From NCBI RefSeq assembly GCF_009914755.1, contig NC_060933.1: a stretch of 64,000 nt of DNA; one strand, written 5' to 3'. The translations under genes were made by a program, and so were the position numbers. Shown here piece by piece: positions 1,250 through 15,665 of this stretch (the first letter of the stretch is position 1; every line of letters starts with the position of its first letter). The notes beneath the pieces are model-generated. The model saw nothing but the letters and a program-made list of their open reading frames with translations, did not search any database and was not told where the DNA came from. Origin of the DNA: the human T2T-CHM13v2.0 reference genome, Homo sapiens.

Positions 1250-2199
1250 TGTGGGCGGCAAGCCACCCAGGTGCCGAGGCAAGAGACCGAGGGCACGAGC
1301 TGTTCCAGTATAATAAAGAAAATATACAGAATAAGAATAGTTATACTGGAACTAGAATATAGATATGATATATGAATATTAATCATTAGTTTGTAGCATT
1401 ACTCTTTGTTCCAATATTATAATAATCTCTGTTCTACAATTATAACCTGGGAAAAACCAGGCCATACAGAGATAGGAGCTGAAGGGACATGGTGAGAAGC
1501 GACCAAAGACAAGTGTGAGCCTTCTGTTATGCCCAGACAGGGCCACTAGAGGGCTCCTTGGTCTAGCGGTAACGCCAGTGCCTGGGAAGACACCCACTGC
1601 TTAGCAGACCAGGAAAGGGAGTCTCGTTTCCCCAGGGGAGTTAGAGAAGACTCTGCTCCACCACCTCTTGTGGAAGGCCTGACATCAGTCAAGCCCGCCC
1701 GCAGCCATCCGGAGGCCTAAACGTCTCCCTGTGATGCTGTGCTTCAGCGGTCACGCTCCTGGTCCACTTTCGTGTTCCGCCCTGTACACCTGGCTGTGCC
1801 TTCTAGATAGCAGTAGCAGAATTAGTGAAAGTATTAAAGTGTTTGATCTCTCCGAGAAATACATAGAAGAAATAATGACATAAGCTGTCCCCATTCTCTC
1901 TCCGCCTCGGCTACCAAATAGGGAAGGGCCCCCTGTCCGGTGGACACGTGACTCACATGACCTTACGTATCGCTGGAGACGACTCACACTTCTTACCTGC
2001 CCCCTTGCCTTGTATCGAATGAATAACAGTGCAGCCAGGCATTCGGGGCCACTACCGGTCTCCATGCCTTGGTGGTAGTGGTCCCCTGGGCCCAGCTGTC
2101 TTTTCTTCCATCTCTTTGTCTTGTGTCTTTATTTCTACGATCTCTCATCTCTGCACATGAAGAGAAAAACACACAGGCACAGTAGGGCTGGACCCTATA
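1250..2199 (+). mobile_element. Solo LTR13 (HERV-K13/HML-4) inserted inside an Alu
   Basis: Starts TGTGGGCGGCAAGCCACCCAGGTGCCGAGGCAAGAGACC, ends GGGCTGGACCCTATA; TSD GTCTC/GTCTT; Alu halves at 1021-1249 and 2200-2283. Confidence 0.85.
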
Positions 2200-2289
2200 G
2201 TCTTGAACTCCTGACCTCGTAATCCGCCCATGTTGGCCTCCCAAAGTGCTGGGATTACACGGGTGAGCCACCGCGTCTGGCCCAACTTT

Positions 2290-3377: not shown

Positions 3378-3477
3378 GGTCAGATGGGTAAGGCGCTGAC
3401 TTTGTAAGAAGGTTTGAGAAAAGCACATCTCACATGAGTGTGAAACCAAATCATCACACTGAGGAACTACAAAAAAT
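3378..3477 (-). pseudogene. U13 (SNORD13) snoRNA retrocopy
   Basis: Reverse complement ATTTTTTGTAGTTCCTCAGTGTGATGATTTGG...TGTGAGATGTGC...TTACCCATCTGACC aligns along U13; box C TGATGA and box D CTGA kept. Confidence 0.85.
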
Positions 3478-5947: not shown

Positions 5948-6150
5948 CTTCTTTTAATATATTTTAATATGTGGCCTAACACATGGTCTGTCCTGGAGGA
6001 TGTTCCGTGTGCTTAAAAACTGTGTGTTCTGCTGTTGTTGGGTGAGTGTTCTGTGTCCGTCCTTTCTAGTTGATTTTAGCACTGTCCAGACCCTCTATTT
6101 CCTTGTTGATCTGCCACCTAGATACGTTTTCCATTACTGAAATAGGTTGA

Positions 6151-6489
<339 letters not shown>

Positions 6490-7500
6490 TGATCCACCCA
6501 CCTGGGCCTCCCAAAGTGCTGGGATTACAGGCGTGAGCCACTGCGCCCGGCCATACATCTTTATAATTGCTATAATGTGTTCATGAATTGACCCTTTTAT
6601 TACTATATAATGTCCTTATATCATGTAATAATTTTTTTTTATTTTGAAACGGGGTCTTTTTCTGTTGCCCAGCCTGGAGTGCAGTGGTGCAATCATAGTT
6701 CATGACTGCCTCAAACTCCTCGACTCCCACAATCCTCCTGCCTCAGCTGCCTGAGTAGCTAGGACTATAGGTCCTAATTTATTTTATTTTTTGTAGAGAC
6801 GGGATGTCACTATTTTGACCAGGCTGCTTTTGAACTTCCTGTCTCACTTGATCCTCCCACCTCAGCTTCCTCAAGTTCTGAGATTACAGGCATGAGCCAC
6901 TGTGCCCAGTCCATCCTTTTACTTTCAATCTATTTAAATCTACTTCTCAACAGCATCTGGAATTTGGCCATTCTCCTTCCTGAACCGTATCTTCAATGAT
7001 GAGATGTTTTCCTGGTTCTCTGGCTGCCCTTGCCCTCCTCCCTGACCCCAATCTTCTCAGTCTGGTGGCACTCAGGACTAGGCCTGGCCCCTTCTTCCAA
7101 CCTTTCCGGACGACAAAAACCATCTATACCTAGGGACTCCTAAAACCTGTCTCCCCTGGCAGACTCTGATCCCGGCACCACCTGCCCACCAAGGTCTCCA
7201 TGGCGCCTCCCAGGCATCTCACAGTGGGCAGATCCAAAACGGAGCTCCTCAGTGTCCCCAAGCCAGAGCCTGCACAGCCTTTGCTGGCCCCTCCACCCAG
7301 GGACCCGCCCTCCTTTTCCCAAGGCCCACTCCTGCGGAGCCCTCCTCCCCCACTCAGCTTTTCCCACAGCCAGGCAGCTCTCCTGGCCTCCTGCCCTCCA
7401 GTGTCTCCACCCAGCCAGAGCAGTTTCACAGTAAACATCTCAGACCTCCAGTCCACGCCAAAATCTTCCCGCACATCAACTGAACCCTCCATGCTACCTC

Positions 7501-8020
7501 TGTAGCAGGACGAGCCGCAGACAAAACCCCTGACAACGGGTTAAAGACGGAAGTGGCGAGACTCCGTCTCAAAAAAAAAAAAAAAAAAGGAAGTGGCTTC
7601 ATTCCGCGGGAACTTCGGCAGACTTGCGTCTTTAAGTACCGAGCTCCCTGAAAAAGAAATTCCCGGCCCTTTTAAGGGCTTACAACTCTAAGGGGTCCAC
7701 ATGGAAGGGTCCTGGTAGATTGAGTAAGCGCGGGAAATGTGACTAGGGGCTATGCATCAGCTCACAGAACAGAAAGTTTTACAATGCTTCTGCATACAAC
7801 GTCTGGAATTTACAGATAACACAAGTAGTTCAGGTCAGGAGCTGATATTATTATTATAATTATTAACCACCAGGGCTGGGTGGTGGCGCCAAGGTCGTCT
7901 GGCTATTTATCTTACTTCGGTTTCTTTCCAACTGTTTGCTTTCTCCCTTTCCTCCTGCCTTATAAACTAGGCAAGGTGGGGAGAGGAGGCCAGCAGGAAA
8001 AGTGGTGGTCTGCTTCCTTA
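7501..8020 (-). mobile_element. Solo LTR2-family (HERV-E) LTR
   Basis: Reverse complement begins TAAGGAAGCAGACCACC and ends GCTCGTCCTGCTACA; exact 4-bp TSD CCTC at 7497-7500 and 8021-8024. Confidence 0.8.
7556..7588 (+). mobile_element. Ultra-truncated Alu (last ~15 nt plus A18)
   Basis: GCGAGACTCCGTCTC-A18 flanked by GGAAGTGGC at 7549-7557 and 7589-7597. Confidence 0.8.
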
Positions 8021-8999
8021 CCTCCAGGACCTGTAGGACCACGGATGGACTGAGACAACCCCCACTCCGTCTCCCAGCCCTGGGAATTTCACCGTCTCAA
8101 ATATGCCAAGGTCCTCCTTGCCTCAGGCAGTTTCGCTCAGGCTCAAGTCAGCCCCCTCCCCACCCTGCCCGGTGCCAGCAGCTTCTCAGCCCTCAGATCT
8201 TGCCTTCAGTGCCGCAGCCTCCGCTGAGCCCTCAGAACCAGCCACGGTTCTTCCCCAGGGCCCTGCTCTTTTCCACACAGGACGTACACATGTGCCACCT
8301 GCCTCTGCCTGTCTGTGGCTGGCTTCTCACCAGCCTCTCCTACAAATCTGTTTTATTCATCTCTGCAGTCAGAACTAAAACGGCAACTGGCCACGGTAGG
8401 CGTTCAAGGAGAATGAAACAAAGAATATGCCTGTTTCTTCCCAGCCAAGAATAGGTTGTGCTCCCAGAGACAGACACAAAAGGGACTCAGAAAGGCATGC
8501 TCTGAGTTGAGAGTCTCAACTGAATCTCAGTGACTCTCCGACTGAGAGTCTATAACGCCCTTAAGCCAAAGACCACTGCAAACACGCCTGTAGTTAAACA
8601 AGTTGGGTCTTTTACTCTACGTACAAACACACCAGGTTGAGACGTTGAGGTGTCTCAGCAACAGGGTGTTCGGAGGAAACTATTACAGGATTTCACCTGT
8701 AGTTGGGTGATTTGGGGGATGATCTAAGGAAGGAGGATTTGGTTCTAGATTAGACGCACGCTGGAGCCCAGGAGGTCGAGGCCGCAGTGGGCCATGATCG
8801 CCACTGCGCTCCAGCCTGGGCGACTAAGCGAGACCTTGCCACAAAAACATAAAAAAAGATTAGACGCTGTGGGAAGGAAGAGGGTAATTCTCAGCTTATG
8901 ATCGCTGCATGTGACAGGGTGAGCTGTGCGTTCCCTGCTTAGAATCAAGAAGAGGTCTTAGTTCATCTCACTTTGTCGTGGTGTCTGCGTGGCGCTTCA

Positions 9000-10574
9000 T
9001 GCCTCACAGAACATGGGCTGGCTACGAGGGTCAAACCAGGCCACAGCAACGCGTCAGGGGCCGCTTGCCTTCTTAGGAGCAACAGGTCCAGAGGCTTCCG
9101 CTCCAAGAGGGACTGGGGCCTGGGCCAGGACCTTGCCGAAAATCAAACGAAGCCCAGACAACCTGCTGGGGCTCCAACCCTTCCTCCCACCACCACCGCC
9201 CCGCAGAATTTGGGCCGCTGAGACCGCTGCAGGCGTGCCGACCACGGCTGCCCCGGCCCGGAAAGCAGATTTGCCCCTTTTTGCGGGGTAAGGGTGGAGA
9301 GGGCGGCGTCGGGGGGAGTCGAGTCTGCCCGCCCAGGCCCCGCTCGGAGCCGCAGGCTGGGAGGGCGGCGGGCGCAGCGACCCCGGGCCTCGGTCCGCCC
9401 GGCGCGGTCCTCACCCTGCAGCACAAGAGCCGCCGGCAGTTCTTGCTGTTGCCGTAGCTCTCGCCAAAGCTCTGCGTCACCGAAATGAAGTCCTGATGAA
9501 GCAGCGGCGGCGGATGCGTGGAAGGGGGCCTCGAGGAACCACCGGCGGCATCAGGAGACCCGGTCCTGTAAAAGACTGAGAGCTCCGCCTCTCCGATACT
9601 CGCGGGCAGCCATTGCGGCGCACAGAACCGTCCGCGTGTGAGCAGCGCGCACGCGCACGCAATGCGCCTCAACCCCGCAGCCTATGCGCCTGCACTGAGA
9701 GCTCACGGCTTGCGGCGCCTGCGTCTACCCCGCGCGCAGTCGCCACGGCAACAGGGCGGGCCTTGGTTCTGCTTCGGGCGTGGTCGGTGCATGGTCCTCC
9801 AGCACTGTTCGCCCCGCGGGTCTGGTCCTGGGTTCCTTTCGCCTCCTGTCGTCGGACGGCACCGGCTTTGCCCACGGCCTCGCGGGGAGACGCAGACACC
9901 CGGGACCCGGGGAGGCGCCCGGGCGCCGCCGCCATGTTGTCAGGGAGCGCCCGCTCCCAGCTCTTCGGTTCCGGGACCCGCGGCGCGGGGATGGGGCTGG
10001 GCCGCCCTTGGTAGCCGTCCTGGGCTGGGGGCCACCCTGGCCGCGTGGTCACCGGCAAGAAGCCCAGGGCCTCACCCGGGCGCGGCGTCGCGGGGGCCGA
10101 GGGAAGGACCGGACCCTCCCGAGGTCGCGGACCCGGCCGGCTGGGGCGAGGCTGGGGTGGCCCCTACCCCGAGCTAAGCTGGCCGCGCCGCATCTCACCG
10201 TCGCCGGGGCCCGAGCGCTGCGCCTGGACCGGCGCCGAGCGAGGGGGCCAAGCGGCCGGCTGGACCCACAGTCCCCGCGCCATAGGCGGGTCGGTGCTTT
10301 CAGACTCGGCTCCAGCCCTCAAACCTGGTAGCCTTGGAGGTCAGCTTGAGATGACTGCGCTTCCTGCGCGCGTTGTCCTCCCCAGAAACGCTCAAAATGG
10401 CAAAGCGGCGTCCGTGGCCGCCGGAGGCCTGTGTTCTCCCCTGCCGAACCTCACGCGCGGCCCCTCCCTCATTTTCTTCTGGCCAGGCTGCCCCCTGCCC
10501 CTTGGGCGATTCTGCTGCGTCCCACGGTCCTGGCTGTGGCATTTCTGGGTGTTTGGAGGGCTCCCCCGGCAACG

Positions 10575-10580
<6 letters not shown>
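9000..10580. promoter_or_regulatory. Orphan CpG island with housekeeping-promoter motifs
   Basis: Very high GC/CpG; NRF1-like GCGCACGCGCACGC (~9646-9660), YY1-like CCGCCATGTT (~9929-9938) and AAAATGGC (~10394). Confidence 0.8.
9415..9613 (-). pseudogene. Degenerate unprocessed copy of MAN1B1 (ER alpha-1,2-mannosidase I) exon 1
   Basis: Across frames reads MAAREYRRGGALS.. / LLMPPV / HPPPLLHQDFISVTQSFGESYGNSKNCRRLLCCR|GTGAGG, versus recalled MAN1B1 [50 protein letters not shown]; in-frame TGA at 9553-9551, frameshifts. Confidence 0.8.

Positions 10581-15665
<5,085 letters not shown>

What the first reader, a model, noticed from the sequence alone, without database searches (positions are those of the whole stretch)
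9000..10580. Orphan CpG island carries a fossil MAN1B1 5' end (exon 1 plus donor), head-to-head with GRIN1: possible inversion-breakpoint relic
Seen: on the - strand, ATG 9613 to AGG|GTGAGG at 9415 encodes, across three frames, MAAREYRRGGALS / LLMPPV / HQDFISVTQSFGESYGNSKNCRRLLCCR. It has a stop at codon 21 and ~20 nt net loss relative to the recalled exon. The donor, a GC-rich intron start and upstream NRF1/YY1 motifs are kept, so this is a genomic copy rather than a retrocopy, and the CpG density argues it stays unmethylated in the germline. Recalled knowledge: this matches human MAN1B1 exon 1; functional MAN1B1 lies tens of kb upstream on the opposite strand beyond DPP7, while mouse Man1b1 is head-to-head with Grin1. 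Inference: this is the ancestral MAN1B1 promoter position, left as an inverted duplicate when the MAN1B1-DPP7 block inverted. It may now act as a ubiquitous promoter/enhancer ~9.5 kb from the REST-silenced GRIN1 promoter, or drive a lncRNA.
Basis: partly seen in the sequence, partly recalled or inferred. Interest (0 to 1): 0.85.

Follow-up and report, generated by a model that had tools for sequence, protein, structure and literature searches.

The report
Inverted partial copy of MAN1B1 promoter
Upstream of GRIN1 lies an old, broken, inverted copy of the start of the MAN1B1 gene whose CpG island has stayed as CpG-rich as the working original, but whether it marks the gene's ancestral position is not shown.

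Summary
Window 9093-10579 is an inverted paralogue, about 88-89% identical over ungapped columns, of the MAN1B1/MAN1B1-DT promoter island, exon 1 and the start of intron 1, which lie 45 kb away. The quoted peptides, the stop at codon 21, the 20-nt net loss and the donor are all exact. The copy is larger than reported. It runs from 6944 to 10579 and includes two pieces of MAN1B1 intron 3. Exons 2-3 are missing, and an interspersed repeat inserted later. The fossil island has CpG o/e 0.85-0.87 against 0.83 in the parent. Of CpG sites, 97 of 150 are shared, against 6 of 34 in the co-duplicated intron pieces, which implies long-term germline hypomethylation. The core holding both TSSs is the most decayed part. 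RefSeq lists only reporter-assay "silent" elements and no transcript there. Divergence (K2P 0.086-0.113) suggests roughly 35-55 Myr (rates recalled). The "ancestral promoter left by an inversion" reading is not supported by what could be tested. The GRIN1-side edge is a junction in a 5'-truncated Alu, and turkey shares the human DPP7-MAN1B1-UAP1L1 order. It is not excluded either.

The parts
6944..7500 (-). Copy of part of MAN1B1 intron 3 (parent chr9:149325486-149326072). This is the DPP7-side end of the duplicated block.
   Evidence: 87.6% over 590 columns, inverted and colinear; 93.3% over 554 ungapped columns, CpG o/e 0.25; homology starts at 6944, 32 nt from a complete antisense Alu head.
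7502..8015 (.). Interspersed repeat (solo-LTR-like, with a short Alu-tail piece) that inserted into the fossil after the duplication.
   Evidence: 1176 first-look candidates; the other full-length copies scored are ~430 bp and 82-86% identical; flanked by an ACCTC direct repeat, while the parent has the empty site at about 149325487. The family name was not determined.
8021..8443 (-). Copy of part of MAN1B1 intron 3 (parent 149325040-149325489). It carries RefSeq 'active region_29345' at 8112-8321.
   Evidence: 82.3% including gaps; 87.4% over 422 ungapped columns. for the RefSeq element.
8444..9092 (.). 650 bp with no detectable homology to the parent's 1616 bp (149323424-149325040), which holds MAN1B1 exons 2 and 3. 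Those exons are absent from the fossil.
   Evidence: best matches of exon 2 and exon 3 anywhere in window 6000-11500 have E 0.2 and 0.26; unique in the genome except for a ~97-bp Alu piece (about 8761-8857).
9093..9414 (-). Copy of the 5' part of MAN1B1 intron 1, with the GT donor retained. It contains RefSeq 'silent region_20582' (9312-9391).
   Evidence: 88.2% for block 9093-9513; parent silent region_20579 maps to 9514-9284.
9415..9613 (-). Fossil of the MAN1B1 exon 1 coding part: 199 nt against 219 nt, frameshifted, stop at codon 21.
9614..9747 (-). Remnant of the bidirectional core promoter (equivalents of the MAN1B1 TSS at ~9628 and the MAN1B1-DT TSS at ~9739). This is the most decayed and shortened part.
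   Evidence: parent 149322655-149322852 aligns at 12-64% identity with large gaps, and the parent's 'active region_29343' maps to 9695-9495, where no element is annotated; one NRF1-like site kept near 9656, one lost.
9748..10579 (-). Copy of the region upstream of MAN1B1, equal to 831 nt of the single MAN1B1-DT exon (parent 149321833-149322663). Two YY1-type motifs are kept. It contains most of RefSeq 'silent region_20583' (9752-10261).
   Evidence: E 2.3e-289. (88.9% over 820 columns; 67 CpG shared)..
9093..10579 (.). The orphan CpG island as a whole.
   Evidence: GC 0.708, 162 CpG, o/e 0.87 (parent 0.83); 97 of 150 CpG sites shared, with symmetric loss (12 versus 13).
10580..10890 (+). 5'-truncated Alu abutting the block; the junction at the GRIN1-side edge.
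   Evidence: 8 of 8 comparison Alus from the region have a ~20-nt head that this one lacks, and block homology runs up to it; not paralogous to the Alus near the parent's edges (ranks 4-5 of 70).

Best explanation
Window 6944-10579 is an old, inverted, partial genomic duplicate of the 5' end of MAN1B1. It comprises 831 nt of the MAN1B1-DT exon, the bidirectional promoter CpG island, exon 1, the start of intron 1 and two pieces of intron 3. It is an unprocessed pseudogene fragment, and RefSeq annotates no gene or transcript for it. Shown: the homology, the disabling lesions, the loss of exons 2-3, the later repeat insertion, and a CpG island as dense as the working parent while co-duplicated intron sequence lost its CpGs. 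Inferred: both islands have been kept unmethylated in the germline since the duplication, roughly 35-55 Myr ago in the primate lineage. The likely cause is that CpG-rich DNA with retained factor sites (YY1-type, SP/KLF-type, one NRF1-like) protects itself from methylation whether or not a gene is attached. Inferred: the piece arrived by a copy-and-insert event that joined it into an Alu already present between DPP7 and GRIN1. On this view it is a dispersed inverted duplicate rather than the ancestral promoter left in place. Today it is most likely an accessible, promoter-like but transcriptionally weak or poised island, because the core that holds both start sites is the part that has decayed.
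For: Identity: (only two places in the genome match, E 2.3e-289 and 2.3e-143). Lesions. Order of events: (target-site repeat in the fossil, empty site in the parent). Hypomethylation: (o/e 0.85-0.87 against 0.83; intron pieces 0.21-0.38); shared CpG 97 of 150 against 6 of 34, Fisher p 6.5e-7. CpG-to-TpG/CpA differences are 25 of 150, only 1.5 times the non-CpG transition expectation, against 17 of 34 (5 times) in intron pieces, and loss is symmetric at 12 versus 13. No sign that conversion from the parent explains it: (945 of 5000 shuffles reach the best high-identity segment; 1753 of 5000 reach the longest run). Accessibility: searches list RefSeq 'silent region_20582/20583' in the island. 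PMC9435738 (passages read) reports 30,078 active and 21,125 silent regions called only within accessible chromatin of lymphoblastoid cells, with silent ones mostly at promoters. Assigning the RefSeq elements to that data set is my inference from their names and numbering. Decayed core. Junction. Bird order like human. Age: (K2P 0.086 non-CpG, 0.113 all sites).
Against: The position (in the DPP7-GRIN1 gap) and the orientation (head-to-head with GRIN1) are exactly what the inversion-relic model predicts, and under my reading they are coincidence. The Alu truncation could come from a later deletion or a truncated insertion rather than from the original junction. One bird is a distant outgroup, and this block flips in mammals, so parsimony is weak. 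No methylation, CAGE or RNA data were available, so germline hypomethylation and present activity are both inferred. Reporter 'silent' calls are episomal and from one cell type, and the paper itself says their nature needs validation. One intron block is much less diverged (non-CpG K2P 0.052 against about 0.10). I did not explain this, and it makes the date rough.
Confidence: 0.5

Rival explanations
1. The ancestral order was UAP1L1-DPP7-MAN1B1-GRIN1, as recalled for mouse. A primate-lineage inversion of the MAN1B1-DPP7 block, made by staggered breaks, duplicated the 4-kb interval between the breaks. The fossil is then the original promoter left in place next to GRIN1.
For: The fossil lies in the DPP7-GRIN1 gap in the orientation ancestral MAN1B1 would have had, and the two copies are inverted and sit at the two ends of the MAN1B1-DPP7 block. 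Inverted duplications at inversion ends are a known signature (recalled from Drosophila work; not read here). The block is reported as inverted between cat and tiger (PMC13047762, passages read), so it is rearrangement-prone. The age is after the primate-rodent split, as the model needs.
Against: The fossil's GRIN1-side edge should be continuous ancestral sequence, but it is a junction with a 5'-truncated Alu. Turkey has the human order DPP7-MAN1B1-UAP1L1, so this model needs at least two inversions. The mouse order is recalled only, with no paper found.
Confidence: 0.3
2. Inverted repeat first, inversion later. The 4-kb copy arose as a dispersed inverted duplicate. Recombination between the two copies then flipped the block one or more times in the primate lineage, so that each copy is now a chimera.
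For: Inverted repeats flank the block. One block (6944-7500) is markedly less diverged than the other three (non-CpG K2P 0.052 against 0.097-0.104), which exchange between copies could produce.
Against: There is no significant high-identity tract within the island blocks. At 87-89% identity, recombination is unlikely today. Flipping between these copies would separate MAN1B1 exons 1-3 from exons 4-13 unless the crossover lay beyond exon 3, and the fossil lacks exons 2-3.
Confidence: 0.1
3. The CpG richness of the fossil is not due to hypomethylation. It is due to recent origin, ongoing conversion from the parent, or GC-biased repair.
For: The transition:transversion ratio in the island blocks is low (49:42 and 30:19), so substitution there is unusual.
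Against: The co-duplicated intron pieces have lost or changed most CpGs over the same time (6 of 34 shared). There is no conversion tract. CpG loss is symmetric between copies (12 versus 13). Divergence is 11%, which is not recent.
Confidence: 0.05

Closest known systems
Unprocessed (duplicated) partial pseudogenes made by small intrachromosomal duplications
   Same: It is copied as genomic DNA with promoter and intron sequence. It is truncated, frameshifted, lacks downstream exons, and was later hit by a repeat insertion.
   Different: At 87-89% identity it falls below the usual threshold for catalogued segmental duplications (at least 90%; recalled). RefSeq annotates no gene or pseudogene here (program's annotation). 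The copied part is essentially a bidirectional promoter.
Orphan CpG islands (islands away from annotated start sites; concept recalled, not read here)
   Same: It meets island criteria and lies 9.4 kb from GRIN1 and 11 kb from the DPP7 start site, with no annotated transcript.
   Different: Its origin can be traced to a duplicated housekeeping-type promoter, and a working paralogue serves as an internal control.
Inverted duplications flanking evolutionary inversions (staggered-break model; recalled)
   Same: Two inverted copies bracket a two-gene block that is recalled to differ in orientation between human and mouse.
   Different: The edge that should be continuous is a junction, and the one outgroup order found matches human. 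Membership is not established.
ATAC-STARR-seq 'silent' promoter-proximal regions (PMC9435738)
   Same: Two such RefSeq elements lie in the fossil at positions paralogous to the two at the true MAN1B1 promoter.
   Different: The fossil lacks a counterpart of the parent's 'active' core element.

Membership tests
Unprocessed partial pseudogene of MAN1B1 | Significant DNA homology to the parent gene that includes non-exonic sequence (promoter, intron) | tested here: met
   upstream, exon 1, intron 1 and intron 3 pieces, E down to 2.3e-289.
Unprocessed partial pseudogene of MAN1B1 | Disabling lesions or incompleteness | tested here: met
   stop at codon 21 and frameshifts; exons 2-3 absent. Exons 4-13 lie outside the block.
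CpG island (length over 200 bp, GC over 0.5, o/e over 0.6; criteria recalled) | Composition thresholds | tested here: met
   1487 bp, GC 0.708, o/e 0.87.
Orphan CpG island with promoter activity | No annotated start site nearby | tested here: met
   the nearest RefSeq TSSs are GRIN1 (19044) and DPP7 (11 kb before the island).
Orphan CpG island with promoter activity | Unmethylated state, H3K4me3 and transcription initiation | not testable with these tools
   Only indirect evidence: CpG retention and RefSeq reporter-assay elements implying accessible chromatin.
Inversion-breakpoint inverted duplication | Two inverted copies at the two ends of the inverted segment | tested here: met
   copies at 149321833-149326072 and 149364944-149368579 bracket MAN1B1 exons 4-13 plus DPP7.
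Inversion-breakpoint inverted duplication | Outgroups carry the uninverted order with a single copy at the fossil's position | tested here: inconclusive
   No mammalian outgroup DNA was available. Turkey has the human order. Mouse order is recalled only.
Inversion-breakpoint inverted duplication | The left-behind copy is continuous with its ancestral flank | tested here: not met
   homology ends at a 5'-truncated Alu. A later deletion could mimic this.
Catalogued segmental duplication (at least 1 kb, at least 90% identity; recalled) | Identity of at least 90% | tested here: not met
   82-88% by BLAST; 87-93% over ungapped columns, by block.

The most novel reading that the evidence does not exclude
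A primate-lineage inversion of the MAN1B1-DPP7 cassette left the original bidirectional promoter stranded 9.4 kb from GRIN1. That island, cut off from any gene and with its core decayed, has been held unmethylated for some 40 Myr and now serves as a poised element or boundary between DPP7 and the neuron-restricted GRIN1. The same cassette flips repeatedly in mammals (mouse, cat versus tiger) because its two boundaries are reused breakpoints.
Probability: 0.25. Interest if true: 0.55.

Novelty: new member of a known kind. Interest (0 to 1): 0.35.

Why it matters
It is a clean natural experiment. A promoter CpG island was separated from its gene tens of millions of years ago, and its working twin sits 45 kb away as a control. 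Both have kept the same CpG density and have lost CpGs at equal, near-background rates, while intron DNA copied in the same event decayed. This supports the view that island hypomethylation is a property of the DNA itself and not of the attached gene. Practically, the island is an unannotated promoter-like element in the 21-kb gap upstream of GRIN1. Its 87-89% similarity to the MAN1B1 promoter could also confuse short-read or probe-based assays of either locus. If the inversion link holds, it would date a primate rearrangement and mark a reused breakpoint region.

Tried and rejected
Exons 2 and 3 of MAN1B1 in the fossil: a sensitive blastn found nothing (best E 0.2 and 0.26).

Extension of the duplication through the flanking Alus: rejected. 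The Alus next to the parent's edges rank only 4-5 of 70 and 5-8 of 50 among matches to the fossil's flanking Alus.

A specially conserved or converted tract inside the island: not significant (945 of 5000 and 1753 of 5000 shuffles).

A structured RNA in either copy: 24 Rfam matches at E up to 1, all below gathering score. 22 are to Alu-related families (SRP, mir-3135, mir-1268, mir-1285). The other two are weak hits at E 0.28 and 0.95.

The 1.3-kb direct repeat near the DPP7 promoter seen: an unrelated interspersed repeat.

Literature for gene order in mouse or other mammals: searches gave only human CNV lists, the turkey table and the tiger paper. The cattle paper gave pathway lists, not positions.

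Literature for a MAN1B1 pseudogene, paralogue or inversion: 0 papers.

Dating the duplication against primate orthologues of exon 1 by protein search: not attempted. The spliced protein cannot be passed by reference, and a single exon (73 aa) would exclude full-length relatives by the tool's length rule.

No mammalian outgroup DNA, methylation, CAGE or RNA data were reachable.
Full report
WHAT IS THERE. The window is chr9:149358001-149422000 of T2T-CHM13. A whole-genome search with window 9000-10600 returned three places. One is the query itself. The other two are inverted pieces at chr9:149321833-149322663 (E 2.3e-289, 87%) and 149323008-149323424 (E 2.3e-143, 87%). RefSeq places MAN1B1-DT at 149320841-149322705 (-) and MAN1B1 at 149322873-149347137 (+). 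Its exon 1 is 149322873-149323106, with coding from 149322888. The gene order on the + strand is ENTPD2, SAPCD2, UAP1L1(+), MAN1B1-DT(-)/MAN1B1(+), DPP7(-), then the window with GRIN1(+).

In a global alignment the parent ATG aligns with fossil 9613, and AGG|GTGAGG is shared at the exon-intron boundary. The parent exon-1 coding part is 219 nt and the fossil is 199 nt. Upstream and intron sequence are included, so the copy was made from genomic DNA.

IT IS LARGER THAN REPORTED. Chaining the inverted, non-Alu matches gives five colinear blocks:
- window 6944-7500 with parent 149326072-149325486
- window 8021-8443 with parent 149325489-149325040
- window 9093-9513 with parent 149323424-149323008
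- window 9575-9621 with parent 149322926-149322880
- window 9748-10579 with parent 149322663-149321833

The block is therefore 3.6 kb here against 4.2 kb at the parent. It covers 831 nt of the MAN1B1-DT exon, the promoter, exon 1, the start of intron 1 and two pieces of intron 3.

The parent's 1616 bp between 149323424 and 149325040 holds exons 2 and 3. In the fossil it is replaced by 650 bp with no detectable similarity (best E 0.2 and 0.26 for the exons). That 650 bp is unique in the genome apart from a short Alu piece.

Window ~7502-8015 is an interspersed repeat. It gave 1176 first-look candidates, and the other full-length copies scored are ~430 bp and 82-86% identical. It is flanked by an ACCTC direct repeat where the parent has a single empty site, so it entered the fossil after the duplication. 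I did not determine its family.

THE ISLAND HAS BEEN MAINTAINED. The fossil island (9093-10579) has o/e 0.87 and the parent island 0.83. The intron-3 pieces copied in the same event have o/e 0.25/0.25 and 0.38/0.21 for fossil/parent.
- Shared CpG sites: of CpG sites present in either copy, 97 of 150 are shared in the island blocks against 6 of 34 in the intron blocks (Fisher p 6.5e-7).
- CpG transitions: CpG-to-TpG/CpA differences are 25 of 150 in the island, about 1.5 times what non-CpG transition differences predict. In the intron blocks they are 17 of 34, about 5 times.
- Symmetry: 12 sites are CpG only in the parent and 13 only in the fossil.
- No conversion signal: there is no significantly over-conserved tract that would point to conversion from the parent. 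945 of 5000 shuffles reach the best segment score and 1753 of 5000 reach the longest identical run of 48.

My inference is that both islands have escaped germline methylation for most of the time since the duplication.

THE CORE PROMOTER HAS NOT BEEN MAINTAINED. In 50-column windows, identity is 80-98% in most of the flanks. It falls to 12-64%, with large gaps, across parent 149322655-149323000. That stretch holds the MAN1B1-DT TSS (149322705), the MAN1B1 TSS (149322873) and the first part of exon 1, and it aligns to fossil ~9756-9520.

With recalled consensus strings:
- Both YY1-type sites are kept at aligned positions (fossil 9938 and 10401).
- One NRF1-like site is kept (about 9656).
- The NRF1-like site at the DT start site falls in a gap.
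- A CACGTG present in the parent is lost.

RefSeq functional elements tell the same story. The parent carries silent region_20578, active region_29343 and silent region_20579. Through the alignment the two silent ones map onto the fossil's silent region_20583 (9752-10261) and silent region_20582 (9312-9391). The active one maps to 9695-9495, where nothing is annotated.

PMC9435738 (passages read) reports 30,078 active and 21,125 silent regions. They were called only within accessible chromatin of lymphoblastoid cells, with silent regions mostly at promoters and enriched for bivalent marks and SP/KLF motifs. The authors caution that silent calls need validation. Linking the RefSeq elements to that data set is my inference from their names and numbers. 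If it is right, the fossil is accessible chromatin in that cell type. RefSeq annotates no transcript from the fossil. Rfam finds only sub-threshold matches, nearly all to Alu-related families.

AGE. Pooled K2P distance is 0.086 at non-CpG sites (1846 sites) and 0.113 at all sites (2213 sites). By block the non-CpG values are 0.097, 0.104, 0.100 and 0.052. The low value for 6944-7500 is unexplained. With recalled long-term primate rates of 1.0-1.2e-9 per site per year this gives 36-56 Myr, and a faster rate gives 20-26 Myr. Either way the event post-dates the primate-rodent split and is a primate-lineage event. The date is rough.

WAS THIS THE ANCESTRAL PROMOTER POSITION?
(a) a mouse-like ancestral order;
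(b) a fossil that is continuous with its GRIN1-side flank;
(c) a junction at the fossil's DPP7-side edge and another at the parent's UAP1L1-side edge.

I could not reach any mammalian outgroup DNA. What I could test goes against it, though not decisively.

First, the GRIN1-side edge. Homology to the parent runs right up to an Alu that lacks the ~20-nt head present in 8 of 8 comparison Alus from the region. That Alu is not paralogous to the Alus near the parent's edges. This looks like a junction formed inside a pre-existing Alu, which the insertion model predicts and the relic model does not. A later deletion could mimic it.

Second, outgroup order. A table in PMC8470100 (passages read) lists turkey chr19 genes as ...ANKMY1, DPP7, MAN1B1, UAP1L1, SAPCD2, ENTPD2... 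The list is positional, because it forms long monotone runs against human coordinates and is not alphabetical. So MAN1B1 is next to UAP1L1 in a bird, as in human. GRIN1-LRRC26 lie elsewhere on that turkey chromosome.

Third, mouse.

In favour of a link with inversion:
- The fossil's position and orientation are just what the model predicts.
- PMC13047762 (passages read) reports a putative cat-versus-tiger inversion on chromosome D4 containing UAP1L1, MAN1B1 and DPP7, so the neighbourhood rearranges repeatedly.

I put the insertion reading at about 0.5, the relic reading at about 0.3, and repeat-first-then-recombination at about 0.1.

HOW IT MOST LIKELY WORKS.
- Shown: a dead partial copy of a bidirectional housekeeping-type promoter.
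- Inferred: its CpG-rich DNA and retained factor sites keep it free of methylation and accessible. Loss of the core with both start sites leaves it weak or poised rather than a ubiquitous promoter.
- Untested: any effect on GRIN1 or DPP7.

COMPARISON AND NOVELTY. It is an unprocessed partial pseudogene and an orphan CpG island, both of which are known kinds. It falls below the usual identity threshold for catalogued segmental duplications (recalled). RefSeq annotates no gene or pseudogene here. No paper in the searchable library mentions a MAN1B1 pseudogene or paralogue, or an inversion with these terms. Supplements and subscription journals were not searchable, and I could not consult GENCODE. 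I rate it a new member of a known kind, with interest 0.35. The clean internal control for CpG-island autonomy and the possible link to a reused breakpoint region are the points of value.

Noticed in passing
window 1250-2200: A ~950-bp interspersed repeat (6372 first-look candidates; most scored copies 83-91% identical) has one copy at chr9:149778402-149779354 (-) that is 99% identical, about 420 kb away. This suggests a recent duplication or conversion.
   Followed up: no
window 8112-8321: RefSeq 'active region_29345' lies in the intron-3-derived part of the fossil, about 100 bp from the later repeat insertion. The parent's counterpart (about 149325170-149325400) carries no annotated element.
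   Followed up: partly
window 6944-7500: This block of the duplicate is about half as diverged as the other three (non-CpG K2P 0.052 against 0.097-0.104). This is unexplained. Possible causes are exchange between copies, local rate variation or chance.
   Followed up: no
window 3378-3477: A U13-like snoRNA (LOC124902353, a cmsearch prediction) lies between DPP7 and the fossil, outside the duplicated block (program's annotation).
   Followed up: no
literature, cattle: Pathway rows in PMC10778490 list 'MAN1B1, MAN1B1', meaning two cattle gene entries of that name inside CNV regions. This hints that MAN1B1 is also duplicated in cattle (table passages).
   Followed up: no
literature, turkey chr19: In turkey, DPP7 is next to ANKMY1, and GRIN1-LRRC26 lie at the other end of the listed interval. 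The DPP7|GRIN1 boundary is therefore a breakpoint region between birds and mammals too.
   Followed up: partly
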